Below are positions 6,083 through 44,695 of a stretch of DNA of 64,000 nt, piece after piece (positions within the stretch are counted from its first letter, which is position 1; each line of letters starts with the position of its first letter). This DNA is from Akkermansia muciniphila (lineage in GTDB: Bacteria > Verrucomicrobiota > Verrucomicrobiia > Limisphaerales > F1-80-MAGS106). The notes under the pieces are model-generated. The model made no database searches. It was not told the DNA's origin and saw nothing but the letters and a program-made list of their open reading frames with translations. A program made the translations under genes and the position numbers. The stretch spans positions 479-64,478 of the forward strand of contig CAMBEJ010000009.1 of assembly GCA_945865375.1 (NCBI GenBank), read 5' to 3'.

Positions 6083-6101
6083 TTTTGAAAAATGACTGAA
6101 G

Positions 6102-8582: not shown

Positions 8583-8591
8583 GGCCTCCCT

Positions 8592-9848: not shown

Positions 9849-9971
9849 AAGGAAACGCCCATTAATCCACCAAACCCACCGGCCAGCAATATGTTTTGCC
9901 TGAGGCATGGCGGAGAAAGGGTCTTACGAATTGCGCTTGCGCGTCCAGGAGTTGTATGGAATGGCTGTAAG

Positions 9972-10516: not shown

Positions 10517-10530
10517 TCTCCTTGCCGCGT

Positions 10531-11571: not shown

Positions 11572-11723
11572 GGAATCAGGCGGAACAGGCTCATTTTTCT
11601 GAGGTCCGAATGTGGGATGTGAATCGTGCCCATGAACCGCTCGGAGGGTGCGCAAAAAGAAGGGTTGGCATTGTTGGCCCTGGATCTAAGCTGATGACAT
11701 TCACGCAGTCTTTGGAGTGCTTT

Positions 11724-25110: not shown

Positions 25111-25406
25111 ATGAGAATCGGTGGGGCGCAACGAGAAGAACTTGCGGAATTCTGCAAGCGGCATGATAATTCGTCGGTATGGGTTTTGCGGAGGTATTCA
25201 ACGTCACCAGTGTTCGCGACTCTTTACCCATGTGTTTGCTGGTATTTTTGAGGTTAAATGAACGACCGGATTAAGGATAAACGGCAGTGGGCCATGGCGG
25301 GGAGAACCAGCGTCCACACTTTGATCCCCGCCGCACTCCAGAATGGTTGGTTCATTGGCGGGCTTGGGCGGACTGTCCCAGTAACAGAACCTAGGAGGAC
25401 TGTCCC

Positions 25407-25658
25407 ATGCCTATGAACCGCCCGCGAACGGACTTGGAGCGCCTGGTGCTGACGGTGCATCGACGCAACGGCGGAACACGGACGTCGTTGGATTTCGACA
25501 CGGAGTTGTTGGGTCCAGAGTTTGGGCTCGATTCCCTTGATTTAGCCGAGATCATGGCGGAGGTGGAACGTCGATTTGGGGTGTCACCTTTTGAAGCGGC
25601 CGAGCCGCCTCGGGTGTGGCAGGATGTGATCAAGTTGGTGGTGTTGAACATCCGTTAA
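25407..25658 (+). CDS. Acyl carrier protein-like
   Basis: 83 aa. GLDSLDLAEIMAEVERRFGV contains the DSL phosphopantetheine-attachment motif. AGGAGG lies 8 nt upstream of the ATG. Confidence 0.6.
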   Translation: MPMNRPRTDLERLVLTVHRRNGGTRTSLDFDTELLGPEFGLDSLDLAEIMAEVERRFGVSPFEAAEPPRVWQDVIKLVVLNIR

Positions 25659-25705
25659 GAGGCCCAACGGAGGCCTCGTCAAGGCGGTGTTAAACTTGTG
25701 GGTTT

Positions 25706-26764
25706 ATGGAGGAAGCAGAGCCGTTTGAGACGTTGTGCGCCCTGTTTAGAGAGCTCGAACGAGGGCGTTCGGTCGCTTTGAGCGGGGATGCAACGCCTCC
25801 CTCGGGTGTGAGCGGAATCGGGCCTTGGGTGGGTGTTAGCACTTCGGGGACCACGGGGCATCCGATCCGGGTGTGGCGGGCGTGGAGAGAGTTCAAGGAG
25901 AGCATCGCCGTGTCTTCGTCGAGGATGGGTTGGGCGTGGGCGACAGGGTTTCGCCCCGATTCCTATGCGGGCGCTCAAGTGGCGGCGCAGGCTTGGTTGG
26001 AGCGAGGAAAGGTTCATTTTATGAAAGAGGTGGGGCGGTCCACCTGGAGGTTGTTGGAGCAGGAATCAGTTGATGCCATCTCGGCGACCCCCACCTTCGT
26101 CGATTTGCTTTTGAGCTCAAGCCGTCGTGCGCAGCGCTGGTGTCCGCGGCAGTTAACTTTGGGAGGGGAAGTATTGCGATCGGTCGTGGGGCAACGCATT
26201 CGAGCCCAATTCTTCGGGGCGCGAATTCAGGTGGTTTATGCGTCGAGCGAGCTAGGGTTGATTTTTAGGACGCGTCGCATGGACGGACTCTATGAGGTGA
26301 AGGGATTGGACCTGCGATTTCAGGGATGGCGGTTGACCACAGAGGGGCTTGCGACTTCCGAGAAGAGCGGAGCGTTGGAATTGCTTTTGGATGGGGAGTG
26401 GAGGCGCACGGGCGATGTGGCGGAGTGGGTGGCCGAGTCATCGGGGGAGGAATGCATCAGGCTGGTGGGGAGGTGTGACGCGGTGGCCAACGTGGGTGGG
26501 ACCAAGGTGAGTTTGGACTGGGTGGTCTCGGTGGCGGAAAGTGTGCCTGGCGTGGCGCGGGCGGTGGCGTGGGCGGAGCGAAATGCGGTCGTGGGCGAGG
26601 TTATTGGATTGCGAGTGGAGCCGGAGCCGGGATTGGATTGGGTGGCATTGAGACCGCAGGTTGAGCGGTGCTTCTGGTCGAGACTTCCGAAGCCGGGATG
26701 GCCAAGGGTGTGGGAGGTGGGAGTAATCGGTTTGGGGGTGAACGGAAAACGGGTGCGACGGTGA
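25706..26764 (+). CDS. Short AMP-binding (adenylate-forming) enzyme, probable acyl-ACP/CoA ligase
   Basis: TSGTTGHPI (A3), YASSELG (A5), RTGD (A7), GRCDAVANVGGTKV (A8) and a C-terminal NGKRV Lys (A10). Only 352 aa. Confidence 0.6.
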   Translation: MEEAEPFETLCALFRELERGRSVALSGDATPPSGVSGIGPWVGVSTSGTTGHPIRVWRAWREFKESIAVSSSRMGWAWATGFRPDSYAGAQVAAQAWLERGKVHFMKEVGRSTWRLLEQESVDAISATPTFVDLLLSSSRRAQRWCPRQLTLGGEVLRSVVGQRIRAQFFGARIQVVYASSELGLIFRTRRMDGLYEVKGLDLRFQGWRLTTEGLATSEKSGALELLLDGEWRRTGDVAEWVAESSGEECIRLVGRCDAVANVGGTKVSLDWVVSVAESVPGVARAVAWAERNAVVGEVIGLRVEPEPGLDWVALRPQVERCFWSRLPKPGWPRVWEVGVIGLGVNGKRVRR

Positions 26765-26771
26765 GGAGAAG

Positions 26772-26813
26772 CAGAGAGCGGAAATGGGTTTGATCGCCGC
26801 TTTCTGTTTTCGG
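26772..26813 (+). terminator. Candidate intrinsic terminator after the adenylating-enzyme gene
   Basis: Stem cagagagcgg (26772-26781) pairs with ccgctttctg (26797-26806), 10 bp including one G-U. The loop is 15 nt and the stem is followed by ttttcgg. Confidence 0.35.
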
Positions 26814-26856
26814 ATTTCATGACTGTTGCCGCCGCGCACCAAAAGGGGTTGTTTGG

Positions 26857-27573
26857 ATGAAACGATATCTTGTTACGGGAGGATCCAGAGGGTTGGGTTT
26901 GTGTGTGGTCAGGGCTTTGCTCGAGTCGGGCGCACAGGTCCTCACATGTGCTCGACGGAGGAGCGAAGGCGTCGATGCCCTGGCGGCTGAGTTCGGCCCA
27001 CGGGTCCGCTTCCTGGAGGTCGATTTGGCGATGCGAGGGACGGTGGCACGATTGGTTCGCGAGTTTGACCTGCTGGATGGATTGGATGGGTTCGTGGCGA
27101 ACGCCGCACTGGGTCTTGATGGAATGCTGACGTTGTCGCCGGAGGAATCGATGCGCGCGTGCGTGGAGGTGAACTTGATATCGTCAATGCTGCTCGCTCG
27201 CGAAGTGATCAAAGGGATGTTCCGCCGGAAACAAGGCAGTCTGGTGTTTGTGTCGTCGGTTGCCGCGCGCACGGGTGTCAGCGGATTGACGGTTTATAGC
27301 GCGACGAAGGCCGGGTTGTGCGGATTTTCGAAGGCGCTTGCCAGGGAATACGGGCCGGTGGGAATTCGATCGAATTGTGTTTTGCCTGGTTTCCTGGACA
27401 CGGAAATGACCCATGGGTTGACCAAGCCCGCGCGGGATCGAATCGCGGCCAGGTCATCGTTGAAACGACTTGGAGCGGCGTCGGATATCGTGGGAGCGGT
27501 CTGCTTTTTGTTATCGGATGCGGCCGCTTTTGTGACGGGAACCGAGGTTGTGATTGATGGCGGAATGCTTTGA
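26857..27573 (+). CDS. Short-chain dehydrogenase/reductase (FabG-like ketoreductase)
   Basis: VTGGSRGLG (TGxxxGxG), YSATKAG (YxxxK), 238 aa. Confidence 0.8.
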   Translation: MKRYLVTGGSRGLGLCVVRALLESGAQVLTCARRRSEGVDALAAEFGPRVRFLEVDLAMRGTVARLVREFDLLDGLDGFVANAALGLDGMLTLSPEESMRACVEVNLISSMLLAREVIKGMFRRKQGSLVFVSSVAARTGVSGLTVYSATKAGLCGFSKALAREYGPVGIRSNCVLPGFLDTEMTHGLTKPARDRIAARSSLKRLGAASDIVGAVCFLLSDAAAFVTGTEVVIDGGML

Positions 27574-27614
27574 AAGCTGAGGTCAAGCCCACTTTTTTGC
27601 CTTTCGACGACTGA

Positions 27615-28223
27615 ATGAATCAAGAACATCCCATGCCGGTCGAGTTTGCTCCAGGAGTTTGCTTTTCGGAAGAGGCTTTACGACGTCATTTCAAGCGGTG
27701 CGGTCCGGGGGTGAAGGTTTTTCGTGGGTGCCGAATCCATCTCCCGGAACAGGTTGAGCTGGGGGCGTATTGTCAGATCGATGAGGGGGTTTTTATTTTC
27801 GCGGGCGAGAGTGTGGTGATCGGTGTTCACGCGCATCTCGCATTTCAATCATCGATCTCGGGCGGTGGCAGGGTGAGGGTGGGTGATTATGCCGGGATCG
27901 GGGCCGGGGTGCGTCTTATCTCCGGATCGGAGGATCCGCACGGCGGGGGATTAACCAACCCGACGATCCCGGCAGCTCTGCGTTCGGTGCGGCGTGGGCG
28001 TGTCGAGGTGGGGGCTTATGCGTTGGTGTTTACGAACAGTGTGGTGTTGCCGGATGTGTGCATCGGGGAAGGCGCGGTCGTCGCTGCGGGGTCGGTGGTG
28101 CATCGCACTTTGAAACCGTGGACGGTTTATGCCGGCTCGCCCCTCGTGGCAGTCGGGGTGCGTGATCCGAAGACAACCGTGGAGACAATGAGGAAGCTCT
28201 TGGAGCAAGAAGCTGAAAGTTGA
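27615..28223 (+). CDS. Left-handed beta-helix (hexapeptide-repeat) acyl/acetyltransferase
   Basis: Repeated [LIV]-G-x4 hexapeptides (VGDYAGIGAGVRLISG, VEVGAYALVFTNSVVLPDVCIGEGAVVAAGSVV), 202 aa. Confidence 0.7.
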   Translation: MNQEHPMPVEFAPGVCFSEEALRRHFKRCGPGVKVFRGCRIHLPEQVELGAYCQIDEGVFIFAGESVVIGVHAHLAFQSSISGGGRVRVGDYAGIGAGVRLISGSEDPHGGGLTNPTIPAALRSVRRGRVEVGAYALVFTNSVVLPDVCIGEGAVVAAGSVVHRTLKPWTVYAGSPLVAVGVRDPKTTVETMRKLLEQEAES

Positions 28224-28302
28224 AATTGGGAAATTCGTGCATCGGCTCAACCTTCAATTTTCTGCTTTCAGCTTTCTCCGCATCGGCTACGGTTCGGCTA
28301 GG

Positions 28303-29082
28303 ATGAGTTGCGTGCTTAAGAAACCAGGGGCTTTGTCCACGCTGCTATTTTCTGCTTTGCTCGGCGTTTGCTGGGTGTTTCCTGATTGGTGGTACAGCCA
28401 CAGTGATACGAGGCAAGGTCGTCGTTGGTTCCTGGAGAAGGCTGTGGTTCCAGGGTGGCACTACACCAAGGTCCCCGTCGCGAAATCCGCCGAAGCCATC
28501 CTGGTGGCGGATGAGTTGGTCAGCGGGGAATTTACCAATGGGAACGGCGAGCTGGTTCGAGTGTTCTCGGCGAAACGCATCCGTGAGAAGAAGAACGAGA
28601 TCGGGCTGTTTGTCCACACGCCGGATCGGTGCTGGACCGAGACCGGGTGGAAGTTGGAACAGCAGGCACCTGACTCAGTGGAGGTGCCGATCCATTCGAT
28701 GCGGATGATTCTGGAGCGTCGGATTTTCAACAGAGGATCGGGGGATCGCGAGTTGGTCCTCTTTGGCGGGCTCGTGGGAGGGCAATCGTTGCCGTATCGA
28801 TTGGATCACAACCTTTCCGTTGGCATGCGACACCAATTGAAAGCGGCTGCGGATCATTCGGGAGCGACGCTGAGGGCTTCGGATCAACGATTCTGGAAGA
28901 GAGTGTGGGAATCGTTTTGGAGTCGCCGGCAGCTTCTCGGTCCGAAACAGTTTATCAGGATCTCCACCCCTCTCAAGCGCGGTGAAGACATCGCCTTGAG
29001 CGACGCGCTGCTGCGGTCATTCCTTCCGCAGTGGTTGGAGGAGTCCGATTTCTCGACTGGCAAGAACGTGAGCAGACAATAA
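28303..29082 (+). CDS. Exosortase-associated EpsI-family protein
   Basis: N-terminal TM (LSTLLFSALLGVCWVF). HTPDRCWTETGW matches the EpsI hallmark H-x-P-x-x-C...GW. It lies directly upstream of the exosortase gene. Start set at the ATG at 28303, beyond a hairpin that covers the track start. Confidence 0.6.
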   Translation: MSCVLKKPGALSTLLFSALLGVCWVFPDWWYSHSDTRQGRRWFLEKAVVPGWHYTKVPVAKSAEAILVADELVSGEFTNGNGELVRVFSAKRIREKKNEIGLFVHTPDRCWTETGWKLEQQAPDSVEVPIHSMRMILERRIFNRGSGDRELVLFGGLVGGQSLPYRLDHNLSVGMRHQLKAAADHSGATLRASDQRFWKRVWESFWSRRQLLGPKQFIRISTPLKRGEDIALSDALLRSFLPQWLEESDFSTGKNVSRQ

Positions 29083-29089
29083 GCAACTC

Positions 29090-29974
29090 ATGCCGATGTC
29101 ACGACCCAGCCATTTTGCGACGGCCCTGCTACTGCTGCCGACCTGGGTGGCCCTCGCGTGGACAATCTCAAAGGCATCGTGGTTTTGGGGGCATCGCGCG
29201 GATCTGCAATTTGGCTGGGTATTAGTTCTTCTGTGCGCCTTTGTGACGTGGGAAGACTGGGAAGCGAGGCCTGTGTTGCAGTTGCGATGGAGTCCGGTGT
29301 CGGCGGGTCTGGCTTGTTTGGGTCTGAGTCTTCTCCTAGTGATCCAAGTGTATCAAGCGGCATTCGGCTTGAATGCGGCTTCGATGTGCGCCCTGGCGCT
29401 CGCTTGCCAAGTCTGTATTACGGCAAACCTGCTCTACCTGTTTGGTGGTGATGGCTTGAGGTGTTTCAGTTTTGGCTTCGCCTTTTTGTTGGTCGCGATG
29501 CCTTTGCCGTCGGCGATCCAAGGGCCGTTGATCTCCTCGTTGCAGGGCTTTATTGCGACGCTGAACGTCGAGGTTCTGAACCTGATGGGCGTGCCGGCGA
29601 GCCGGGTCGGCAGCCTGATTCAACTGCCCTCGGGCACGGTGGGAGTGGATGAGGCATGCAGCGGGATCCGGAGTTTGCAAGCGACGGTGATGGCGACGCT
29701 GTTCATCGGGCGATTGGGACTGGTATCCCTTGGATTCAGGGGTGTGTTGTTTGTAACGGGACTTGGGCTGGCGATTCTCGGGAATATCATTCGCTCGCTG
29801 TTCTTGAGCACCACGGCGAGTTACGGAGGGATAGCCGCCGTGGAGACGGCGCATGACGCGGCGGGTTGGTCGGTCCTTGCGTTTACAGCGGCGGGAGTGG
29901 CTGTGGCTAGTGGGATCCTGGGCAGGCTCGAGCAAAAGGTGGTGCAAGCTAAAAAATTGAAAGCAGAGAGTTGA
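29090..29974 (+). CDS. Exosortase-family protein (EpsH/Xrt)
   Basis: Polytopic membrane protein with the catalytic-site motifs VDEACSGIRS (Cys), GNIIRS (Arg) and HDAAGW (His). Confidence 0.8.
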   Translation: MPMSRPSHFATALLLLPTWVALAWTISKASWFWGHRADLQFGWVLVLLCAFVTWEDWEARPVLQLRWSPVSAGLACLGLSLLLVIQVYQAAFGLNAASMCALALACQVCITANLLYLFGGDGLRCFSFGFAFLLVAMPLPSAIQGPLISSLQGFIATLNVEVLNLMGVPASRVGSLIQLPSGTVGVDEACSGIRSLQATVMATLFIGRLGLVSLGFRGVLFVTGLGLAILGNIIRSLFLSTTASYGGIAAVETAHDAAGWSVLAFTAAGVAVASGILGRLEQKVVQAKKLKAES

Positions 29975-30109
29975 ACGTGGAAGGTGGAAGATGGAAATCA
30001 ATTGGACATTGGAAACACATGAATAAACCTCACTGCTTTTTTCGGATTTCAGCTTTTGGAATGCGGCTGTTCATTTCCCGGGGTGGCGGTTAGGTTCCGG
30101 GGAGTTTCG

Positions 30110-31030
30110 ATGATTCAACGACACCAATGTCCGATCTGCAACCACGCTGCAATCCCTATTTTTGCTCGACCCTACGCGCTGCCTGAACTGGGCGCCATGA
30201 TCGCGGCTTCGGGGCTTGGGGGGAAGCTCGACGGTTGCGACTACGAGGTGCGTGCCTGCACGGCGTGCGAATTGCACTTTCAGACCTGGGTGATGTCGGA
30301 TGACGAGTTGGAGCACTGGTACTCACCGCCGCGGGATGACGACTCGTTCATGCAAGAAATTGGATCGCAGAAGCTGCACTGGTTTGCCCATCAGACGGAG
30401 GAGATTTTGGTATTGAGACAGGTCTGCGGCGCGAGGACACCCCGGGTCCTGGACTTTGGCTGCAATTTGGGGAAGTGGGCGAGCATGGCGCTAGCGCACG
30501 GCTGCGAGGTTTACGGGGTGGACGTGAATCATGACGCCGCACGATTCTGTGCTGGGCGAGGGATTCAGATGGTTTCCTTGGAGGAGGCGCGCTCTCTCCG
30601 TTTCGATTTCATCAACGTCGATCAAGTTGTCGAGCATCTGAGCGCACCTCTTGAGATCACGCGGGCTTTGGCGGGGTGCTTGAAGCCCGGCGGTTTGATC
30701 AAGTTGAGCACGCCGCACAACCCGGCACTGCCGATCAAGCTGAGAGCCTCCGGTCATGATGACAACCGTGTGCTGGAGGCGGGAACTCTGGATGCCCTGC
30801 TCCCTCTTATGCACGTGAATTTGTTCACGCCCGACTCGTTGCGCACGCTGGCTTCCGGGGCTGGCCTCCGGGAGTTTCGCCAGCCATTTCTGACATGGCT
30901 TGGGGCCGGTCAAATGTGGAACCTTCCCCGCCAATTGAATCGCAACCTGACCGTGCCTTTCAAGCGGTGGCGTGGCCGGGGGACGTATCTTTGGTTTGAG
31001 AGTGGGAACCGTCCAAAGGCAGAAAGTTGA
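30110..31030 (+). CDS. Class I SAM-dependent methyltransferase with an N-terminal Cys4 zinc-ribbon
   Basis: CPICNH...CTACELHF, then VLDFGCNLGKW (motif I) and INVDQVVEHL. Confidence 0.65.
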   Translation: MIQRHQCPICNHAAIPIFARPYALPELGAMIAASGLGGKLDGCDYEVRACTACELHFQTWVMSDDELEHWYSPPRDDDSFMQEIGSQKLHWFAHQTEEILVLRQVCGARTPRVLDFGCNLGKWASMALAHGCEVYGVDVNHDAARFCAGRGIQMVSLEEARSLRFDFINVDQVVEHLSAPLEITRALAGCLKPGGLIKLSTPHNPALPIKLRASGHDDNRVLEAGTLDALLPLMHVNLFTPDSLRTLASGAGLREFRQPFLTWLGAGQMWNLPRQLNRNLTVPFKRWRGRGTYLWFESGNRPKAES

Positions 31031-31070
31031 AAGGCTGAGATGGAGGATTCAAGGTTCCGAAGCGCTTCCG

Positions 31071-31709
31071 TCACGCCGTTTTCTTGAGCACGGTCCACAG
31101 GGTATGAGCGAATCGATTCAGATAGCGCATCTTGTTCCCCGCAGCCAAAGCATACCGCAGCCAGCGAAGCAACGCAGGTCTTGGCCGTTCCATCGCATAC
31201 GACTCAACAACCTTCACCGGGAATTTTTGGGGCTGCCCTTCTATGAACTGGATGGCTTCATGGAGGTTGAAGAACCATTTGTGTCGGTCCACTGGTGTTT
31301 GGATCTGTAGACCATAATGTCCGATCGTTCCGTAGCCGCGTTCGATCGCCCGGCGCGCATTGGACCAGTTGTTCGGCAGCGATAGGATGAGATGCCCTCC
31401 GCAGACTCTCACCAGTTCTCCAAAAACAAAATGGAGATTGTCCAGATGCTCCAGAACATCGGCGCAAACCACGCAGTCAAATTGCGAGGTGGCGAAGGGC
31501 AGCTCATCGATTTCATCGAGGTTCAGGATGAGATCCGGAGTTCCTTCAACATCGACACCCAGGTAGTCAATGCCTGGAACGAGACGCTTCAGCAAGGCGT
31601 TGTCACACCCCACATCCAGAACCTTGCCTCGGATGTATTGCGGGAAGCGTTGCGCAATGTAACTTGATCGCAAAGACCCCTCAGGAAAATGGTCGAACTC
31701 AACACGCAT
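31071..31709 (-). CDS. Class I SAM-dependent methyltransferase
   Basis: VLDVGCDNALL (motif I), DCVVCADVLEHLDN. ATG at 31709; the track start at 31736 is TTG. Confidence 0.7.
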   Translation of the reverse strand: MRVEFDHFPEGSLRSSYIAQRFPQYIRGKVLDVGCDNALLKRLVPGIDYLGVDVEGTPDLILNLDEIDELPFATSQFDCVVCADVLEHLDNLHFVFGELVRVCGGHLILSLPNNWSNARRAIERGYGTIGHYGLQIQTPVDRHKWFFNLHEAIQFIEGQPQKFPVKVVESYAMERPRPALLRWLRYALAAGNKMRYLNRFAHTLWTVLKKTA

Positions 31710-31795
31710 GAAGGGAGTGTGTCGCCCGGCTTGCAAAACGCAATAATCTCATTTAGATCTTCGGCCCACACGCAGCGGCACGCGGGCGGGCAGGC

Positions 31796-31981
31796 TCAGA
31801 ACTCAGTAAAAGCGGTTGAAATCGTGATCTGAATGCGCCACCCCAATGCCTCCATTTTTCGTAATCGTAATCCTCGGGTGTTGCCCTTGAAACAGAGGAG
31901 TGGAGCACGATTACGATTACGAGCAGGGAATTGGAGTTGCTCGAGCATCAGGCTAAACAGGGTCGTTTTACTGAGTTCAGA
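31796..31981 (+). mobile_element. Foldback MITE-like element, copy C (short arms)
   Basis: tcagaactcagtaaaag ... gttttactgagttcaga termini. Same central spacer cctcgggtgttgcccttgaaacagagg. About 2 hexamer units per arm. Confidence 0.8.
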
Positions 31982-32067
31982 GACTTCGCCACGCCTTGAG
32001 CTCAACGGCTATTTCGGACGACCGGATTGTTTGGTTTTGATCTTGCCGAATCGGGGGATGGGTTGGG

Positions 32068-36105: not shown

Positions 36106-37711
36106 CATCGCGATCATTGGGTCGGGGTTTGCGGGCTCCCTGCTCGCATTGGCTTGCCGTCAGCTCGGCCTCCGTGTCTTGCTGCTCGAACGAGGACAGC
36201 ATCCGCGCTTCGCCATCGGCGAGTCCTCAACACCGTTGGCCAATCTGTTGCTCGAAGAACTGGCGTCTCAGTACGACCTGCCTCAGATTGCCGCCTTCTC
36301 AAAATGGGGAACTTGGCGCCGCACCTATCCCTTTATCCGCTGCGGGCTCAAACGAGGGTTCTCCTTCTTCCAGCACTCGCGAGGAAAACCTTTCGCGCCG
36401 ATGCCTTCACGTCGCAACGAGCTCCGGGTGGCCGCAAGCCCCTCCGATCAAATCGCCGACACACACTGGTTTCGCGAAGATTTCGATGCCTTTCTTTGTG
36501 ATCAAGCCCGTGCCGTCGGAGTGTCCTATGTGGACCGCATCGAATTGGAGACCCCGGTGCGCACGGCAGCGCACTGGCGATTGGTGGGACAACGAGACCA
36601 CGTGAAGTGTGGTTGGACCGCTGGGGCGCTTTTCGACGCCACCGGGCCCCGCGGCTTTTTGTTCCGAGCGTTTGGCCTGAAAGAGATCCGAATGCCTCGG
36701 CTTCCCGCAACAGCAGCTCTTTTCTCGCACTTCAAGAACGTCCCACTATGGGGTGATCTCCATCCATCGGCCGAACGAGCACCCTTTCCGGTCGATGACG
36801 CTGCGCTGCACCACCTCATCGACGGAGGATGGATCTGGGTTCTCAGATTCCTCGATGGAACCGTCAGCGCGGGGGTTGCGGCCTGTGGAGCGGAGGCGCA
36901 GCGCTTCAACTTCAATTCGGGCGCATCGGCCTGGCGGAGGGTGTTGAGCGAATACCCCTCGATTCAGAGGCAGTTCGAGCATGCGGAGCCGATACGCCCC
37001 TTTGGGCACATGGCCTCATTGTCGTTTCAGTGCGAGACCCTTTCCGGTGATCATTGGGCCATGCTGCCTTCTGCTGGAGGGTTTGTGGACCCCCTGCTTT
37101 CGACGGGGTTTCCCCTCGCATTGCTCGGGATCCTGCGCGTCGCCGGGATTGTTCGGGACCAGTTCGGAAGGCGCAATTTCTCTGAATCCCTGGAACAACA
37201 CGCCCGGATCACGCGGTGCGAACTTCTCGCGGCGGAAAACCTGATCGCATCTCTCTACACCGCATTCGATGACTTCGAATTGTTCACGAACCTCAGCCTT
37301 CTCTATTTTGCCGCGGCGAGTTTCAGCGAGACCGTGCGACGTCTTGGGCGGCCTGAATTAGCGGGCGGGTTTTTGCTCCATGACCATCCCGTCCATGGGC
37401 CGCGCATTGCGGAATGCTGCGCGCTCGCGCGCGATCTCGCAAAGCCTCGGGAGGCACGCGATCCAGCGCGGAAACATCTCCTCCATTTAATTCAAGACAC
37501 CATCCGACCCATCAACGTCGCGGGACTTGCTGACAGCACTCGTCGCAACTGGTATCCCGTCAATCTAGAGGATCTCTACGCCGCCGCGCCGAAGGTTCGC
37601 GCCACACACCAGGAGATCGATGCCATGCTCGCGCGATGCGGGCTCACACCCCGCCATGGGGAGCCAGGTTCACCTGCCGACTCCGTGAACCTCGAAGCCG
37701 ATCGATCTTAG
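36080..37711 (+). CDS. FAD-dependent oxidoreductase, flavin-halogenase/geranylgeranyl-reductase-like
   Basis: [12 protein letters not shown] (GxGxxG), AIGESSTP, and GGWIWVLRF, a variant of the halogenase WxWxIP block. Its start overlaps the radical SAM stop (ATG at 36080 or 36086 versus stop at 36105). Confidence 0.6.
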
Positions 37712-39043
37712 CGCGACGTGGTCCAGGAGGTTCCGTCCGTCGAAGAGGCTCGCGGGCTTGCGCATGGTGCTATGAAGCCGGGCGTAGTCATAGGTTTTGA
37801 ACTCGTCCCACTCGGTGAGCACAATGATCGCGTGCGCGGAGTCGGCGGCGGCGTAAGGATCGCTCAAGCATGTGACACGCGCGGCCAAGGCGTCCGCGCC
37901 AAGGCCAGTGGCTTTGCGGAGCTCGGCGAGGATCGTCTCCGAATTGACCTGGGGATCATAAATCGCAAGCTCCGCCTGCTCAGCCAGAAGGTCGCGACAA
38001 ACATAAATCGCGGCGGATTCACGCGTGTCGTTGGTGTCCTTCTTGAACGCAAAACCAAAGATAGCAATTTTTTTACCAGCGACAGTGTTGAATAAAGTTT
38101 TGGTTATGCTTTGAACAAACCGCGTCTTTTGGTAGTCGTTCATATGGACGACCTGCTCCCAATAAGAAGCCACTTCGCGCAGGCCGTAGTGCTCGCAAAG
38201 ATAAACGAGGTTCAGGATGTCTTTTTGGAAGCATGACCCACCAAACCCAACCGACGCTTTCAGAAATTTCGAGCCGATCCGTGAATCCTTGCCAACCGCG
38301 TAGGCGACTTCATCGATGTTGGCGCCGGTGACCTCGCAGAGAGCGCTGATGGAGTTGATCGACGAGATTCTTTGGGCGAGCATCGCGTTAGCCACCAACT
38401 TGCTCAGCTCGGAAGACCAGAGGTTCACTGTCAGAATACGCTCCCGCGGCACCCAGTGGGCGTAGATATCGGCGAGTGCTTTCACAGCGGCATGGCCTGA
38501 CGGCGTGGGGTCGCCGCCAATCAAGACCCGGTCCGGCTCCTCCAGATCCCGCACGGCCGTGCCTTCGGCGAGGAATTCGGGGTTGGACAATATCTCGAAC
38601 CGGTGTCGGTTGCTGTTCGATTCCAGCACCCGCTTCAGGGACTCGGCCGTGCGCACTGGGAGAGTGGATTTCTCAACCACAATCTTGTCACCGTTTGCCA
38701 CCTGGGCAATGCGGCGGGCGCACAGCTCGACGTATTTGAGATCGGCGGCCTTTCCAGCTCCTCGGCCATAGGTTTTGGTGGGCGTGTTCACCGAAACAAA
38801 AATCATCTCAGCGTCCCGGATGGCCTGATCGACATCGGTGCTGAAGAAAAGATTTTTACCTCTCGATCCGAGGACGACCTGATCCAGGCCCGGCTCATAG
38901 ATGGGTAGGGAATCCGAGTTCCATGAGTTGATTCGATCAGCATTGACATCGACCACCGTGACCCGGTGGGCGGGACACTTGTGAGCGATCATGGCCATGG
39001 TGGGACCGCCCACGTAACCGGCACCGATGCAGCAAATGTTCAT
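37670..39043 (-). CDS. ugd: UDP-glucose 6-dehydrogenase
   Basis: [15 protein letters not shown], catalytic-Cys block [10 protein letters not shown], 457 aa of eukaryote-like UGDH type. Confidence 0.85.
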
Positions 39044-39146
39044 CAGGATTTGTAGACTGTGGAATGTGCGTGGTTTGTCAACGAACGATACTCTTTGGAT
39101 GAGGGGCGCGCGTGGTCAGCCATGAGGCAGAATGTCAAAGTTGAGA

Positions 39147-41198
39147 TCAAAGTGTTTTCTTTTTTCTGCTTTTTTGTTGATTGCGGCGAGGGCTTAGCGA
39201 CTCAACGTCTGTCAACCATTCTGTCGCGGACGCATCGCTCGGCATCCGCCAATCGCCGCGAGGGGAGAGGGCGACCGAACCGACCTTAGGGCCGTCAGGT
39301 TGCACCGAACGTTTAAATTGTTGTGAGAAAAAGCGCCGGACAAAAACGGTGAGCCATTTGATGATCGTCGCTCGATCATAGCGCCCGCGAAAGGCCATTT
39401 CTGCCAGGCAGAGAATTTTGGCCGGACGACTGCCGTACCGCACCAGGTGAAAAAGAAAGTAATCGTGCAGTTCGTAGGGGCCGATGAGGCTCTCGGTCCT
39501 CTGCTGCAACGTGCCATCAGGCGCCGCCGGCAACAGTTCGGGCGTGACTGGCGTCGCGCAGATGTCGCGGAGCACCTCCACAGCCGCACCCTGGAACTCC
39601 GCGTCGGCACACCACGCCACGAGATAGCGCACGAGGGTTTTTGGGATGCCGACATTCACGTGATACATGGACATCTGATCGCCATTGAATGTACACCACC
39701 CAAGGGCGGCCTCAGAGAGATCGCCAGTGCCGACCACGAAACCGCCAGTCTTGTTGGCGAGATCCATCAGGATTTGTGTGCGCTCACGGGCCTGCGCATT
39801 CTCGTAGGTCACATCATGCACCGCCGGGTCATGCCCGATGTCACGGAAGTGCTGTGATACGGCGTCGTGAATGGGAACGACACGAAGGGTGGCACCGAGC
39901 ATCAGCACCAGCTTTTCGGCATTGGAACGTGTACGTTGAGTGGTGCCAAAACCGGGCATCGTGACCGCAAGCAGTCCCTTGCGGTCGAGCCCGAGGGTGT
40001 CGAACGCGCGGGTCACCACGAGCAGGGCAAGGGTGGAATCGAGCCCGCCTGAAATCCCGATGACGACCGACTTGGCAGCCGTGTGCCTGAGACGCTTAGC
40101 CAATCCGGTGGATTGAATGTCGAAAATTTCACGACAAGCGGTCGCGCGCTGCCCAGGGTCGGAAGGGACGAAAGGTGATGAGGGGTTGGGACGGAGAGTT
40201 CCCAGAGGCTGCCGCGCCTTCCCGTTCATCGTTACCGAGAGCGGCACTCGTTGAAAAGAGCGCCCCTGAGCGGAGGACGAGAAGCTGGTATTGCAGAGCC
40301 GCTCGTGTTGCAATCGCTCCAAGTCAATATCCGCAAACACAGACTGAGTGAGGAAGTGAAATCGTTCTGACTCAGCGAGCACAGCACCGTTTTCCGCAAT
40401 CAGACAGTGGCCGGAAAAAACCACATCCGTCGACGATTCGCCGGGTCCGGCCGAGGCATAGACATAGGCGGCGAGACAACGAGCCGATTGCAGGCGCACC
40501 AAATCGCGCCGATAGGAGCTCTTTCCGAGCAATTCGTTGCTGGCGGAGGGGTTGAGCAACAGGGTCGCCCCGGCAAGGGCTTGCTCACCGCTGGGCGGCG
40601 TCACAGCCCATAAATCCTCGCAGATTTCAATTCCAAAGACACAATTGGGGAGGTTCTCGGCCACAAAAAGCAGGTTGGTGCCTAACATCACACTTTTCCC
40701 GTGGGAGAGCGCCACTTCGGTGGCGGGCAGGCCAACCCCTGAAGCAAACCAGCGCCGTTCGTAGTACTCGCCTGATGTCGGCAAATAGGATTTGGGAACG
40801 AGGCCCAACACACATCCGTCCCCCACCATTGCGGCGCAGTTATAGAGGCGGCCGTCTAACGCCACGGGCAGCCCTACGACGGCAATCACTCCGAACTCGC
40901 CAGCGGCTGTCGCCACTTCTTCCAGCGCCCGCCACGCGTTTGACAGAAGCAGCGATTGGCCGAATAAGTCACCGCACGAATATCCGGTTAGCGAAAGCTC
41001 CGGAAACAACACCACGGACGCGCCGGACTTCGCGCTCGATTCCATGGCGGCGATGATCGCCGCCGAGTTGTATGAGACATCCGAAACTTTCAACGTCGGC
41101 GCGACAGCCGCGACGCGGAGAAAACCATGTGAGCCGGCGGTCATTTCTTCAAAATTGAACTCAAGCCAATGTGTGCTCTCAACTTGCAACTCTGGCAT
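39147..41198 (-). CDS. nadE: Glutamine-dependent NAD+ synthetase (long form, CN-hydrolase plus PP-loop synthetase)
   Basis: N-terminal nitrilase-like domain ([12 protein letters not shown]...FPELSLTGY...EICEDLW) and the PP-loop [10 protein letters not shown]. The alternative ATG at 41144 (MTAGSHGF) would remove the 20-bp overlap with rfbB. Confidence 0.8.
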
Positions 41199-42264
41199 TT
41201 GGATTGTTGTCTAAGCCGATCCGCTCCAGCCGATAGTTGCCGCTCAAGATGTGTTCCCACCAGGCCCGGTTGTCGAGATACCAACGAACCGTCTTCCTGA
41301 AGCCGCTTCGTGGGTCCTCGAGCGGAGTCCACCCCAGCTCTCTTTGGGCAGATGTCGCATTGATGGCATACCGCAAATCGTGCCCCGGTCGATCTTTGAC
41401 AAAAGTAATCAAATCGGAGTGGAGACGACCCTCAGGCCGGGGCGAAAGATCGTCCATGATGCCACAGAGCAGGTGGACAAGATCGATGTTCTGGCGTTCG
41501 TTGTTGCCGCCGATGCAGTAGGTCTCGCCTGGCCGACCGCGCTCCGCAGCCATGAGAAGAGCCCGGGCGTGGTCGTGGACGTAGAGCCAGTCGCGAATGT
41601 TCTCGCCTTTCCCGTAGACAGGGATGGACTCTCCGCGCAGGGCCTTGAGGATGACAACGGGGACGAGCTTTTCAGGAAACTGGTAAGGGCCGTAATTGTT
41701 CGAGCAATTGGTGACAATGACTGGCAGTCCGTAGGTGTCCATCCAGGCACGGGCCAGGTGGTCCGATGCGGCTTTGCTGGCGCTGTAGGGGGAGTGCGGA
41801 TTGTAAGGCGTGCGCTCGTTGAACGCCGCGTCGGTCAATCCCAGCGAGCCAAACACCTCGTCGGTGGAGACATGCACGAAGCGGAATTGTTGTCTTGCGC
41901 TGTCCTCCATGCCGCGCCAGTAGCCTAGCGTCGCTTGCAGAAGCTGGAAGGTTCCCGTGACATTGGTTTGGATGAATTCGCCCGGGCCCTCGATGGAACG
42001 ATCCACATGGGATTCGGCCGCAAGATGCAAAACAGCCTCAGGCTTGTGCAACGCAAATGTCTGGCGCATGGCTTCCGCATCGCAGATGTCCGCCCGCACA
42101 AAGTGATACCCTGCTGAGTGATGAGCACCGAGATCCCGCAGCGACTCCTCGTTGCCCGCGTAGGTGAGTTTGTCGACGTTCACCACGGCGTGGCCGGCTT
42201 CGAGCAAATGCCGGACGAGGTTCGAACCGATGAACCCAGCGCCGCCTGTCACAAGGAATTTCAT
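41179..42264 (-). CDS. rfbB: dTDP-glucose 4,6-dehydratase
   Basis: [25 protein letters not shown] (YxxxK), full-length RmlB-like sequence. Confidence 0.85.
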
Positions 42265-42433
42265 ATATGAATCGAAGAATTAACCCCGAAACGGGGTCAA
42301 AAGGAAATACAATATGTCTTGAGCTCCGGAGATGGCCAAGCAACGGAACACAAGAACTTTCAACTGCCAGTTCAAGTTTGAGTTCTCTTTCGGTCCCATT
42401 CCGTCCCGTTTCCGCAGATTACAACCTCGCATG

Positions 42434-43543
42434 CTATGTCGAGAGCCTCGCGTCGCGCACGGCGTTCACCACCGCATCCTGGTCGGATTCACCGAGAAAA
42501 GCGTGCATGGGCAAACTGAGGACTTCCTGCGAAGCCCTTTCGGCATTTGGAAACTGGCCAACAGGATATCCCAAAGGTTCGAAAACAGGTTGCTCATGAA
42601 GGCATTTGGGATAGTAAACTGCGGTCGGAACCCCTTTTGCTTTCAGCGCCAACCCCAGAGCATCGCGATCACAATCCTGAACACGGATCGTGTACTGCGC
42701 ATAGACGTGCGTGTTGCCAGGCATCACCTCAGGCACGACACACCCGGGGAGGGTGCTTAAAAGCGCCGAATACCGCCCACCGATGCGGCTGCGCTCCGCC
42801 ACTTCCCATTCAAAGTGGGGCCATTTCGCCAACAAGACGGCGGCTTGAAGGGTGTCGAATCGACCGTTCATGCCTAACAACGGATGATGATGCCGGCGCA
42901 CCCCGCCATGCGTTCGGATGGCGCGCATGCGCTCTGTGAGGGCATCGTCCTGAGCGAACAACGCGCCGCCGTCCCCATAACAGCCCAGGGGCTTGGCTGG
43001 AAAAAAACTGGTGCTAGAAATGGCCGTCACTCCGCAACTGCGCCGACCCCGCTGGGTAGCGCCAAAACTTTGAGCGCCATCCTCGATCACCACGATTCCG
43101 TGCTTTGCGGCGATGCTGTTTATCAGGTCGTAGTCGGGCATCTGTCCAAACAGACTGACGGGCAGTATGGCTCTTGTCCGTGGCGTGATTGCTGCTTCCA
43201 TGGCATCGATATCGATGTTGTAGGTGCGCGGCTCGATATCGACAAAGACAGGCTTCGCACCGACCAGGCAGATGACTTCGGCCGTGCTGATCCATGTGAA
43301 AGGCACCGTGATGACTTCGGAGCCGGGGCCGATCTCCAGGGCGCGCAAGGCGATTTCGAGGCTGTCGGTGCCGCTGGCCACGGTGAGACAATGCTTTAAG
43401 CCCACGTAGGAGGCGAGGGCGGCTTCGATCTCGGCAACCTCCGGGCCCATGATGAACTGGCCGTGGTCCATGACTCGCCGCATCCGCGCGTCGATGGAGT
43501 CCTTGTAGCGCGCGTATTGCGTTTGGAGATCGATGAAATGCAT
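42434..43543 (-). CDS. DegT/DnrJ/EryC1/StrS-family nucleotide-sugar aminotransferase (WbpE/WecE-like)
   Basis: MHFIDLQTQY..., FIMGPEV, PLP-lysine block FFPAKPLGCYGDGGA. ATG at 43543; the track start at 43558 is TTG. Confidence 0.8.
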   Translation of the reverse strand: MHFIDLQTQYARYKDSIDARMRRVMDHGQFIMGPEVAEIEAALASYVGLKHCLTVASGTDSLEIALRALEIGPGSEVITVPFTWISTAEVICLVGAKPVFVDIEPRTYNIDIDAMEAAITPRTRAILPVSLFGQMPDYDLINSIAAKHGIVVIEDGAQSFGATQRGRRSCGVTAISSTSFFPAKPLGCYGDGGALFAQDDALTERMRAIRTHGGVRRHHHPLLGMNGRFDTLQAAVLLAKWPHFEWEVAERSRIGGRYSALLSTLPGCVVPEVMPGNTHVYAQYTIRVQDCDRDALGLALKAKGVPTAVYYPKCLHEQPVFEPLGYPVGQFPNAERASQEVLSLPMHAFLGESDQDAVVNAVRDARLST

Positions 43544-43653
43544 TTCAGAAAGAGCCAAAAACGGAGAATGGAAAGCAGACAGCAGAAGCGGGTCCGATTT
43601 CAGCTTGCTGATTCGTTCTTGTTAGCGATCACGCGCTGCGGATTTCAGTTCTC

Positions 43654-44667
43654 TCATTTTTGTTCCCCGTAAAATTTGCGGTACCATGCCACGAAACGTT
43701 CCACGCCTGTTTCTATTGGCGTTGCGGGCTTGAACCCCACGTCGCGGATCAGGTCATCGACATCGGCGTAGGTGGCGGGCACATCCCCCGGCTGCATAGG
43801 TAACATGCGCATTTCAGCTCTGACACCCAAGACGCGCTCAAGCGTGGTGATGAGGTGCATCAGTTCCACCGGGTTGTTGTTGCCGATATTATAAATTTTG
43901 TAGGGCGCGCGGCTTGTTCCCGGATCAGGCACGGCTCCTGACCATTCGGAATTGCCTGACGCAACGCGATCGGTCACGCGGACAACGCCTTCGACGATGT
44001 CATCGACATAAGTAAAATCGCGGCGCATGCGGCCTTCGTTAAAGACATCGATGGTTTTGCCTTCGGTGATAGCTTTTGTGAACAGGAACAACGCCATATC
44101 GGGTCGTCCCCAGGGGCCATAAACGGTGAAGAAACGCAGGCCCGTTGTGGGCAGGCTGTAGAGATGGCTGTAGGTGTGGGCCATGAGTTCGTTGGCCTTC
44201 TTGGTAGCGGCGTAGAGACTCAAGGGATGATCCACATTGTGATGCACGGAGAAGGGCATGGTGGTGTTGGCGCCGTAGACCGAGCTGGATGACGCGTACA
44301 CAAGATGTTCGACCCCGTTGTGGCGGCAGCCTTCGAGAATATTGACGAACGCAACCAGGTTGGCATCGACATAGGCATGAGGGTTCGTGAGCGAATAACG
44401 AACACCGGCTTGCGCGGCGAGATTCACGACGCGTTCGGGTCGGATTTGGTTGAACAGATCGGCGCAGCCCGACCTGTCCGCGAGATCCATTTTGTGGAAG
44501 TGAAAATTGGGATGTCCTTGCAGCCGGCTCAGTCGCGCCTCTTTAAGCCGCACGTCGTAATAATCGTTGAGGTTATCGACCCCCACGACAGCGTCGCCGC
44601 GGTTTAAGAGGACGTGGGCAAGGTGGGAACCAATAAAGCCAGCGACGCCCGTGACAAGTATTTTCAT
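43654..44667 (-). CDS. NAD-dependent nucleotide-sugar epimerase (UDP-glucuronate 4-epimerase-like)
   Basis: [15 protein letters not shown]...[28 protein letters not shown] (YxxxK). Confidence 0.75.
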
Positions 44668-44695
44668 TTGCTAGAGGCCCGAGTGCGAATAGAGA

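What the first reader, a model, noticed from the sequence alone, without database searches (positions are those of the whole stretch)
25407..31030. Exosortase/EpsI pair preceded by an ACP, short adenylating enzyme, ketoreductase and LbH acyltransferase cassette
Eight co-directional genes with short gaps lie here. They are an ACP (DSL site), a 352-aa AMP-binding enzyme that keeps motifs A3/A5/A7/A8/A10, an SDR, a hexapeptide acyltransferase, EpsI (HTPDRCWTETGW), an exosortase (CSGIRS / NIIRS / HDAAGW) and a zinc-ribbon methyltransferase. A convergent second methyltransferase follows. Established knowledge: exosortases are proposed transpeptidases for PEP-CTERM proteins, and their acceptor is unknown. 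The XrtA-type systems described by Haft and colleagues include an associated acyl-CoA ligase and ACP together with a PLP decarboxylase and hydrolases. Here the partner set differs (KR plus LbH transferase, no decarboxylase or hydrolases). Inference: the cassette may load an acid onto the ACP, reduce it and transfer it. That would make an acyl or hydroxyacyl moiety used as an exosortase acceptor, or as a modification of the exported polymer or protein. I found no PEP-CTERM-type substrate (PEP motif, TM helix, basic tail) in this window.
Basis: partly seen in the sequence, partly recalled or inferred. Interest (0 to 1): 0.62.

Follow-up and report, generated by a model that had tools for sequence, protein, structure and literature searches.

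The report
Exosortase pair with sugar-acylation cassette
A lake Verrucomicrobium carries a protein-sorting enzyme pair (EpsI plus exosortase) directly behind four genes that most likely put a short hydroxy-acyl group on an amino sugar. This six-gene block recurs in dozens of related uncultured species, so it is a real, undescribed variant of a known system and gives a concrete lead on what exosortases work with.

Summary
The genes are real and named correctly. There are seven co-directional genes, not eight, plus one convergent methyltransferase. The exosortase passes only the generic exosortase model. It fails XrtA and every other named subtype.

Neighbourhood tests passed:
- The 350-aa adenylating-enzyme family lies beside EpsI and this exosortase clade in 27 of 27 informative genomes, despite gene-order shuffling.
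- Starting from EpsI, 25 of 38 informative genomes carry the cassette.
- The two methyltransferases are not conserved.

Relatives show the wider context. The usual order is PglE-like 4-aminotransferase, ACP, ligase, FabG-like reductase, LbH, EpsI, exosortase, PglC-like priming transferase, PglF-like dehydratase. The LbH is a full-length homologue of AntD, a 4-amino-sugar N-acyltransferase. A homologous ACP-ligase-reductase trio sits in an exosortase-free FdtA/DegT sugar locus.

Best reading: the cassette makes a short hydroxyacyl-ACP and N-acylates a 4-amino-4,6-dideoxy sugar. That sugar primes a surface glycan tied to this exosortase.

Whether the sugar is the exosortase's acceptor remains open (about 0.2). 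Lake metatranscriptomes show expression. No PEP-CTERM substrate lies in the window.

The parts
25407..25658 (+). Dedicated acyl carrier protein (83 aa) with GLDSLD phosphopantetheine serine site
   Evidence: PF00550 26.7 bits. Orthologues at 43-63% identity lie in 25 of 27 informative loci, either before the ligase or between LbH and EpsI. An RBS, AGGAGG, lies 8 nt upstream of the ATG. Covered by metatranscriptome contigs 25189-25712 with no mismatches.
25706..26764 (+). Short (352 aa) ANL-superfamily adenylating enzyme, predicted to load an acid onto the ACP
   Evidence: PF00501 33.5 bits, covering only the second half of the N-terminal domain. Motifs A3, A5, A7, A8 and A10 are conserved. Best PDB sequence relatives are the carrier-loading enzymes DltA and FadD10, plus a 358-aa short ANL, 4gs5. 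The AlphaFold model has pLDDT 89.6 and an ANL fold. The family is confined to Verrucomicrobiota MAGs and lies next to EpsI and Xrt in 27 of 27 informative loci.
26768..26813 (+). Intergenic hairpin followed by a T-rich run, between ligase and SDR
   Evidence: -21.5 kcal/mol, z -3.7. Its arm sequence GAAGCAGAGAG/CTTTCTGTTT is related to the arms of the other intergenic elements.
26857..27573 (+). Classical SDR, FabG-like ketoreductase (238 aa)
   Evidence: TIGR01830 188 bits (below its 297.75 cut-off); PF13561 173.9 bits. TGxxxGxG and YxxxK motifs are present. It is 40% identical over its full length to the SDR of the exosortase-free ACP-ANL-SDR-LbH sugar cassette in L114. Present in 26 of 27 loci.
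27615..28223 (+). Left-handed beta-helix N-acyltransferase (202 aa), AntD-like
   Evidence: Full-length match to PDB 3vbi-3vbp, E 5e-21, residues 17-189 against 22-193 of 205. 3vbn is AntD of Bacillus cereus (PMC6031040). Weaker hits to NeuD/PglB/VioB and WcaF models. Orthologues at 52-63% identity occur in 24 of 27 loci.
28209..28276 (+). Intergenic hairpin between LbH and EpsI. It overlaps the LbH stop and the GTG of the long EpsI ORF.
   Evidence: -22.1 kcal/mol, z -2.9. Inverted repeat I10, 16 nt, 88% complementary.
28303..29082 (+). EpsI/DUF3485 exosortase-associated protein (259 aa from ATG 28303; the ORF opens at GTG 28237)
   Evidence: PF11984 38 bits. TIGR02914 26.4 bits, below its 42.8 cut-off. 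One N-terminal helix, then a beta-rich domain (model pLDDT 77). FVHTPDRCW and PYRLDHN are invariant. Always paired with the exosortase.
29090..29974 (+). Exosortase (294 aa) of an unnamed Verrucomicrobial subfamily
   Evidence: PF09721 124.8 bits. TIGR02602 108.6 bits against a cut-off of 105.55. No named Xrt model reaches its cut-off. C190, R194, N232, R235 and H255 are invariant. It sits in a clade of 36 sequences, support 99/89, that holds every cassette-linked exosortase. RNA contigs span the EpsI-Xrt junction.
30056..31030 (+). Zinc-ribbon class I methyltransferase; a local neighbour, not part of the conserved module
   Evidence: PF13489 66.6 bits. No orthologue lies next to any related exosortase locus.
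31071..31736 (-). Convergent class I methyltransferase; a local neighbour, not conserved
   Evidence: PF13489 32.6 bits. No hits in related loci.

Best explanation
The block joins two units that travel together in one order-level lineage of Verrucomicrobiota.

Unit 1 (ACP, short ANL ligase, FabG-like reductase, AntD-like LbH) is an amino-sugar N-acylation cassette. The proposed steps are:
1. The ligase adenylates a small oxo-acid and loads it on the dedicated ACP (inferred).
2. The reductase turns it into a hydroxyacyl-ACP, for example 3-hydroxybutanoyl (inferred).
3. The LbH transfers the acyl group to the 4-amino group of a nucleotide-linked 4-amino-4,6-dideoxy-hexose(NAc). This is inferred from the AntD homology and from the PglE-like and PglF-like genes that flank the cassette in relatives.
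4. A PglC-like phosphoglycosyl transferase then places that sugar on undecaprenyl phosphate as the first sugar of a surface glycan.

Unit 2 (EpsI plus an unnamed exosortase subtype) is the PEP-CTERM-type protein-sorting pair.

The cassette is a frequent but dispensable tailoring accessory of the glycan pathway in which this exosortase clade is embedded. In this genome only the six-gene core has stayed together. The dehydratase, 4-aminotransferase and priming transferase must lie elsewhere.
For: - Gene identities.
- The ligase family lies with EpsI and Xrt in 27 of 27 informative loci. SDR is present in 26, ACP in 25, LbH in 24, DegT in 20, Bac_transf in 21 and PglF-like in 17.
- Order is shuffled while linkage is kept. 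The ACP moves, PglF is inserted between SDR and LbH in L002, and Xrt comes first in L112.
- From the EpsI side, 25 of 38 loci have the cassette, 5 have only sugar-priming genes and 8 have neither.
- In the Xrt tree, every cassette-linked exosortase falls in one clade (99/89). None of the 35 sequences outside it has the cassette.
- Pfam hits on neighbours in relatives: DegT, Bac_transf, Polysacc_synt_2, GT2, GT4, Epimerase_2, Wzy_C.
- The LbH matches AntD at E 5e-21 over its full length.
- The conserved DegT best matches C4-aminotransferases (1o61/4ztc and perosamine synthases, E 1e-65). C3-aminotransferases score E 1e-41 or worse.
- A homologous ACP-ANL-SDR trio with another LbH sits between FdtA and DegT in an exosortase-free locus.
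- ANL relatives in the PDB are carrier-loading enzymes.
- Expression in lake metatranscriptomes, with contigs spanning the ACP-ANL, SDR-LbH and EpsI-Xrt junctions.
Against: - No enzyme here has been assayed. The acid, the sugar and the nucleotide carrier are all inferred.
- AntD uses a CoA thioester, not an ACP thioester.
- In this window no PglF-, PglE- or PglC-like gene is adjacent. The only DegT in the window (42434-43558) is a WbpE-type C3-aminotransferase.
- One relative (L095/L135) keeps ACP and ligase next to EpsI-Xrt without SDR and LbH.
- EpsI and Xrt are more constant partners of the ligase (27/27) than the sugar enzymes are (17-21/27). A pure sugar-tailoring role does not predict this.
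- All genomes are MAGs of one lineage, so shared ancestry contributes to the synteny.
Confidence: 0.6

Rival explanations
1. Acceptor model. The lipid-linked N-(hydroxy)acyl amino sugar made by the cassette, or the glycan built on it, is the molecule onto which this exosortase transfers the cleaved C-terminus of its substrates. This would parallel the T9SS sortase PorU, which joins cargo proteins to an aminoacyl-modified linking sugar of A-LPS.
For: - EpsI-Xrt sits physically between the N-acyltransferase and the PglC-like priming transferase in most loci.
- EpsI and Xrt are the only invariable neighbours of the ligase family, 27 of 27.
- The six-gene core stays together here and in L082/L096 even where the other sugar genes have left.
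- Published precedent for PorU and the Wbp/Vim linking sugar, with explicit speculation that exosortases use a modified sugar (PMC7468200).
- Other carrier-protein acylation sets accompany other exosortase types. The XrtA accessory set is from my own knowledge; earlier AI notes are leads only.
Against: - 13 of 38 members of the same EpsI/Xrt clade lack the cassette.
- A reductase implies a hydroxy group, not an amino group, so there is no obvious amine nucleophile. Acylation would cap the sugar's only free amine.
- The ANL family consensus has a conserved Pro, with no conserved Asp, where amino-acid-activating enzymes carry the amine-binding Asp. This is my reading and is weak.
- The homologous trio works without an exosortase elsewhere.
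Confidence: 0.18
2. Inherited neighbours only. The sugar-acylation cassette and EpsI-Xrt belong to functionally separate surface pathways. They are adjacent only because one ancestral Verrucomicrobial locus has been passed down.
For: - All carriers are Verrucomicrobiota MAGs of one lineage; the few other labels look like binning noise.
- Each unit can occur without the other: EpsI-Xrt alone in 8 loci, and the trio without an exosortase in L114 and L115.
- Earlier AI notes on other exosortase loci reached this verdict (leads only).
Against: - Proteins have diverged to 40-60% identity and flanking genes differ completely. The cluster survives at least four internal rearrangements and survives relocation away from its sugar partners.
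- The short-ligase subfamily was never found away from EpsI-Xrt.
Confidence: 0.12
3. Non-sugar target. The cassette builds an acyl or hydroxyacyl group that is transferred to a lipid, an amino acid or the sorted protein itself. This would echo the N-acyl amino acid synthases that are linked to PEP-CTERM/exosortase loci.
For: - Here, and in L082/L096, no sugar-nucleotide gene is adjacent.
- L095 keeps only ACP and ligase with EpsI-Xrt.
- A link between N-acyl amino acid synthases and exosortase loci is reported (Craig et al. 2011, as cited in PMC7293339).
- FadD10 is among the ligase's PDB relatives.
Against: - The LbH's only strong characterised relative is a nucleotide-sugar N-acyltransferase.
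- 20 to 21 of 27 loci carry PglE-like and PglC-like genes directly flanking the unit.
Confidence: 0.08

Closest known systems
PEP-CTERM/exosortase (EpsH-EpsI) system of Haft et al. 2006 (PMC1569441)
   Same: An EpsH-family multi-pass membrane protein with the conserved Cys/Arg/His motifs, paired with an EpsI homologue. In relatives it is embedded among polysaccharide genes.
   Different: It passes only the generic exosortase model. No PrsK/PrsR/PrsT genes and no PEP-CTERM gene lie in the window. EpsI precedes the exosortase rather than following it or being fused to it.
Exosortase A (XrtA) accessory set: TIGR03098 ligase, ACP, PLP decarboxylase, two hydrolases (my knowledge of TIGRFAMs)
   Same: A carrier protein and an adenylating ligase sit next to an exosortase.
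   Different: The XrtA model scores 90.8 bits against a cut-off of 208. The ligase does not hit TIGR03098 at E 0.01. There is no decarboxylase or hydrolase. A FabG-like reductase and an AntD-like LbH are present instead.
AntD of the Bacillus cereus/anthracis anthrose operon (PDB 3vbi-3vbp; Kubiak and Holden 2012)
   Same: A roughly 200-aa all-LbH N-acyltransferase, alignable end to end (E 5e-21). AntD puts a short hydroxyacyl group on a 4-amino-4,6-dideoxy sugar nucleotide.
   Different: AntD takes 3-hydroxy-3-methylbutyryl-CoA. Here a dedicated ACP, ligase and reductase are expected to supply the donor. The sugar and its nucleotide are unknown.
Campylobacter Pgl bacillosamine route (PglF, PglE, PglD, PglC) and Neisseria PglB2 glyceramido variant (my knowledge)
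   Same: Relatives carry a PglF-like dehydratase, a PglE-like C4-aminotransferase, an LbH N-acyltransferase and a PglC-like priming transferase in one cluster.
   Different: The PglD step is replaced by an AntD-like enzyme plus an acyl-ACP supply. EpsI-Xrt is inserted in the middle. In this window the PglF-, PglE- and PglC-like genes are not adjacent.
ACP-ANL-SDR-LbH cassette in FdtA/DegT 3-amino-sugar loci (L114); Vibrio cholerae O1 RfbK-O tetronate acylation of perosamine (my knowledge)
   Same: A dedicated ACP plus ligase plus reductase plus LbH acylates an amino sugar. The SDR is 40% identical and the ligase about 31% identical to those here.
   Different: Those ligases are about 405 aa with a recognisable AMP-binding_C domain. 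The LbH is a different subtype. No exosortase is present.
T9SS sortase PorU with the Wbp/Vim linking sugar (PMC7468200)
   Same: A C-terminal sorting transpeptidase whose acceptor is an N-acyl-modified amino sugar of a lipid-linked glycan. It is a mechanistic model for the acceptor reading.
   Different: The peptidase family is unrelated. The acyl group there is an amino acid added by a FemAB-like enzyme, which gives a free amine. Here the chemistry points to a hydroxyacyl group.

Membership tests
Exosortase (EpsH, TIGR02602 / PF09721) | Scores above the curated cut-off of the family model over its full length | tested here: met
   TIGR02602 108.6 bits against 105.55. PF09721 124.8 bits against 25.7, residues 15-269.
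Exosortase (EpsH, TIGR02602 / PF09721) | Conserved catalytic-type Cys, Arg and His motifs | tested here: met
   C190 (CSGIRS), N232/R235 (NIIRS) and H255 (HDAAGW) are invariant in 21 homologues.
Exosortase (EpsH, TIGR02602 / PF09721) | Genome encodes several PEP-CTERM (TIGR02595/PF07589) substrates | not testable with these tools
None occurs in the 64-kb window. Canonical VPEP tails lie near the orthologous exosortase in L002 and L083.
Exosortase A (XrtA) system | XrtA subtype model above cut-off | tested here: not met
   TIGR03109 90.8 bits against 208. All other named Xrt, Crt and Art models are also below their cut-offs.
Exosortase A (XrtA) system | Accessory TIGR03098-type ligase, PLP decarboxylase and hydrolases | tested here: not met
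   The ligase gives no TIGR03098 hit at E 0.01. No decarboxylase or hydrolase lies within 10 kb.
EpsI (TIGR02914 / PF11984) | Scores above the family cut-off | tested here: inconclusive
   PF11984 38 bits against 26.1 (met). TIGR02914 26.4 bits against 42.8 (not met).
AntD/QdtC-type LbH nucleotide-sugar N-acyltransferases | Full-length sequence homology to a characterised member | tested here: met
   E 5e-21, residues 17-189 against AntD 22-193 of 205. QdtC is weaker, E 2.6e-4.
AntD/QdtC-type LbH nucleotide-sugar N-acyltransferases | Acylates the amino group of a nucleotide-linked amino sugar | not testable with these tools
   Supported only by context: a PglE-like DegT in 20 of 27 loci and a PglF-like gene in 17 of 27.
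Carrier-protein-loading ANL enzymes (DltA/FadD10-like) | ANL fold with core motifs and the A10 lysine | tested here: met
   Model pLDDT 89.6. Foldseek E 1e-18 to ANL ligases. Motifs are invariant and K348 is nearly invariant.
Carrier-protein-loading ANL enzymes (DltA/FadD10-like) | Transfers the acyl group to a carrier protein rather than to CoA | not testable with these tools
   Inferred from the adjacent dedicated ACP in 25 of 27 loci and from best PDB relatives DltA and FadD10.
Pgl-type bacillosamine priming pathway | PglF-like dehydratase, PglE-like aminotransferase and PglC-like transferase in the locus | tested here: not met
   Absent from this window: tblastn finds only a 28%-identical WbpE-type DegT at 42437. 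Present in most relatives.

The most novel reading that the evidence does not exclude
This unnamed exosortase clade works like a Gram-negative counterpart of sortase/lipid II or PorU/A-LPS. EpsI-Xrt would cleave PEP-CTERM proteins and join them to the undecaprenyl-linked priming sugar whose synthesis genes surround it. The hydroxyacyl group installed by the ACP-ligase-reductase-LbH cassette would be the attachment handle, through an ester link, or a determinant that EpsI recognises. This would name a concrete acceptor for an exosortase for the first time.
Probability: 0.18. Interest if true: 0.85.

Novelty: new variant of a known kind. Interest (0 to 1): 0.48.

Why it matters
What exosortases attach their substrates to has been an open question since 2006. 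This clade offers an unusually compact and conserved gene set. EpsI-Xrt is wedged between an amino-sugar N-acyltransferase and the priming phosphoglycosyl transferase. That arrangement names one specific lipid-linked sugar as a candidate partner, and it can be tested by heterologous reconstitution.

The work also defines three things:
- an exosortase subfamily not covered by the NCBIfam subtype models;
- a dedicated subfamily of truncated (about 350 aa) adenylating enzymes;
- a portable ACP-ligase-reductase unit that supplies hydroxyacyl donors to different LbH sugar acyltransferases.

If the ordinary reading holds, the finding is mainly an annotation gain for Verrucomicrobial surface-glycan loci.

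Tried and rejected
- XrtA or any other named Xrt subtype was rejected on curated cut-offs.
- The methyltransferases are not members of the module. No orthologues lie beside any related locus.
- Amino-acid activation by the ligase is judged unlikely. The family consensus shows a conserved Pro, and no conserved Asp, at the A4 position. This is a weak, sequence-only argument.
- The ligase structure model and fold search confirm an ANL fold but say nothing about the substrate. Top matches are aryl- and small-acid ligases at 16-20% identity.
- The EpsI model and fold search gave no significant PDB match. The best was E 0.06, to SciW/Eag chaperones.
- A regex scan for PEP-CTERM tails found none in the window and only two near cassette-linked loci.
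- The terminator and promoter consensus scan found no more sites than shuffled sequence gives.
- Literature searches for this gene combination found nothing describing it.
- The window's own sugar operon was considered as the substrate source. Its DegT is WbpE-type, a C3-aminotransferase on a uronic acid, so the fit to an AntD-like 4-N-acyltransferase is doubtful.

Full report
**Observation.**
- ACP, 25407-25658: PF00550, GLDSLD site.
- A 352-aa ANL enzyme, 25706-26764. PF00501 matches only profile positions 170-330, so about 125 N-terminal residues of a normal ANL enzyme are missing.
- A FabG-like SDR, 26857-27573.
- A 202-aa LbH transferase, 27615-28223.
- EpsI/DUF3485, ORF 28237-29082.
- An exosortase, 29090-29974.
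- A zinc-ribbon methyltransferase, 30056-31030, and a convergent methyltransferase, 31071-31736.

There are seven co-directional genes, not eight. EpsI most likely starts at ATG 28303, because GTG 28237 lies inside a hairpin and orthologues are 250-275 aa.

Upstream lies an unrelated CusCBA-like efflux operon. Downstream lie an oxidoreductase, a permease and a radical-SAM/flavoprotein pair.

**Exosortase subtype.**
The protein passes the generic exosortase model (TIGR02602 108.6 bits against 105.55). It fails XrtA (90.8 against 208) and every other named subtype. About 400 homologues were found, mostly 50-58% identical, and where a source named them the labels were mostly Verrucomicrobial. The Cys, Arg and His motifs are invariant.

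**Is the cassette conserved with it?**
Three scans of one genome per species were made.
- From the ligase side, 33 loci were found. In all 27 with enough flanking DNA (this window included), EpsI and the exosortase lie within a few kilobases. SDR is present in 26, ACP in 25 and LbH in 24.
- Linkage survives rearrangement. The ACP sits either before the ligase or between LbH and EpsI. A PglF-like gene is inserted between SDR and LbH in L002. The exosortase comes first in L112. Flanking genes differ widely.
- From the EpsI side, which is blind to the cassette, 38 genomes were informative. Of these, 25 have the cassette, 5 have only amino-sugar priming genes, and 8 have neither.
- In a maximum-likelihood tree of 71 exosortases, all cassette-linked ones fall in one clade of 36 (support 99/89). 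None of the 35 outside it has the cassette.

So the ligase subfamily was found only beside this exosortase clade, whereas the exosortase can do without the cassette. The methyltransferases have no counterparts in any related locus.

**What the cassette does.**
Relatives reveal a context that this window has lost. The commonest order is DegT, ACP, ligase, SDR, LbH, EpsI, Xrt, Bac_transf (PglC-like), Polysacc_synt_2 (PglF-like). Glycosyltransferases, a UDP-GlcNAc 2-epimerase and in one case a Wzy_C protein lie nearby.

- The conserved DegT best matches C4-aminotransferases. These include 1o61/4ztc, which I recall as Campylobacter PglE, and perosamine synthases, at E about 1e-65. C3-aminotransferases score E 1e-41 or worse.
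- The LbH aligns end to end with PDB 3vbi-3vbp at E 5e-21. Entry 3vbn of that series is AntD of Bacillus cereus (PMC6031040), and the six matched chains score almost identically, so I read all of them as AntD and variants. From established knowledge, AntD adds a short hydroxyacyl group to dTDP-4-amino-4,6-dideoxyglucose.
- The ligase's nearest solved relatives are the carrier-loading enzymes DltA and FadD10, plus a 358-aa short ANL, 4gs5. Its model is confident (pLDDT 89.6) and ANL-like, but says nothing about the substrate.
- A more distant ligase homologue (405 aa) lies in an FdtA, ACP, ligase, SDR, LbH, DegT, GT2 locus with no exosortase. Its SDR is 40% identical to the one here over the full length, while its LbH is a different subtype.

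Hence ACP-ligase-reductase is a portable supplier of hydroxyacyl donors, paired with whichever LbH suits the amino sugar.

The most economical mechanism has four steps:
1. An oxo-acid is loaded on the ACP.
2. It is reduced.
3. The hydroxyacyl group is transferred to the C4 amine of a PglF/PglE-type sugar nucleotide.
4. That sugar is placed on undecaprenyl phosphate.

Steps 1-3 are inferred from family membership and step 4 from neighbours in relatives. None has been assayed.

**Relation to the exosortase.**
Two facts go beyond 'exosortases sit in polysaccharide loci' (PMC1569441).
- EpsI-Xrt lies inside the priming-sugar pathway, between the N-acyltransferase and the PglC-like enzyme.
- EpsI and Xrt are more constant partners of the ligase (27/27) than the pathway's own dehydratase or aminotransferase (17-20/27). 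Here and in L082/L096 the six-gene core has moved without those enzymes.

This keeps the acceptor hypothesis alive. It has a published analogue in the T9SS sortase PorU and its aminoacyl-modified linking sugar, whose authors speculated the same for exosortases (PMC7468200).

Three points count against it as an obligatory mechanism:
- A third of the clade lacks the cassette.
- The chemistry yields a hydroxyl rather than an amine and caps the sugar's free amine.
- The homologous trio functions without an exosortase.

I therefore rate glycan tailoring within an exosortase-associated glycan locus at about 0.6, the direct-acceptor model at about 0.18, pure inherited adjacency at about 0.12 and a non-sugar target at about 0.08.

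**Expression.**
The stretch is present at up to 100% of sampled words in several lake-water metagenomes. Four freshwater metatranscriptomes give mismatch-free contigs over parts of it.
- Contigs span the ACP-ligase junction (25189-25712), the SDR-LbH junction (27499-27649) and the EpsI-Xrt junction (28914-29292).
- Nothing covers the three hairpin-bearing gaps, so co-transcription across them is untested.
- Depth is low, and DNA carry-over cannot be excluded.

**Limits.**
The genome's PEP-CTERM repertoire, other exosortases and the location of PglF/E/C-type genes could not be checked.
- No PEP-CTERM tail occurs in the window. Canonical VPEP-TM-basic tails occur near the orthologous exosortase in L002 and L083.
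- All related genomes are MAGs, some with doubtful labels.

**Novelty.**
Literature searches found no description of this gene set. Earlier AI notes report analogous carrier-protein cassettes beside other exosortase types and mostly judged them modular neighbours. These are leads, not evidence. I class the finding as a new variant of a known kind: an unnamed exosortase subfamily with a dedicated, frequently retained amino-sugar N-acylation cassette.

Noticed in passing
window 26768-26820, 28209-28277, 29953-30056, 31019-31045: A family of GA-rich/CT-rich intergenic hairpin elements (arms like GAAGCWGARAG ... CTTTCWGCTTTC) sits after consecutive genes. It supplies the shared last codons (..AES-stop) of the LbH, the exosortase and MT1.
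   Followed up: partly
window 31860-31985: A foldback element with CGTAAT/ATTACG arms lies between MT2 and the next gene. Metatranscriptome contig depth jumps to 55-260 here, with many divergent loose ends at 31978-31988, as expected for a multi-copy transcribed repeat.
   Followed up: no
window 37670-45982 (- strand): The DegT at 42434-43558 is a WbpE orthologue (E 1e-120), so this glycosyltransferase-free operon looks like a Wbp-type 2,3-diamino-uronic-acid route. It includes a NadE-like CN_hydrolase/NAD_synthase protein. A NadE-like plus epimerase pair also lies just upstream of the cassette locus in relative L117. The protein may therefore be a sugar amidotransferase rather than NAD synthetase.
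   Followed up: partly
L095 / L135 4671-7951: One relative has DegT, ACP and ligase directly followed by EpsI and the exosortase. It has no SDR or LbH, even at relaxed tblastn thresholds.
   Followed up: partly
L121, L139, L144, L145 (about 6000-11700 in each): A second architecture of the same EpsI/Xrt clade has PglE-like DegT and/or PglF-like dehydratase directly upstream of EpsI-Xrt, with no acyl cassette. The 4-amino sugar could remain free or be acetylated by an enzyme encoded elsewhere.
   Followed up: no
window 28303-29082 (EpsI model m651e99767726): The weak best fold matches of EpsI are Eag/SciW (DUF1795) chaperones, which bind transmembrane helices, and PsbP-like proteins (E 0.06-0.2, TM about 0.3-0.45). 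The match is not significant. It is suggestive given that exosortase substrates carry a C-terminal TM helix.
   Followed up: partly
L116 763-2766: A 667-aa fusion of PglD_N, Hexapep and DegT domains (acetyltransferase plus aminotransferase in one protein) lies upstream of the cassette in one relative. That locus probably makes two different N-acylated amino sugars.
   Followed up: no
window 50119-50345 and 55513-55770 (- strand): The two giant secreted proteins end in a shared C-terminal domain (S.DL..W ... FYRA) with no TM helix or basic tail.
   Followed up: no
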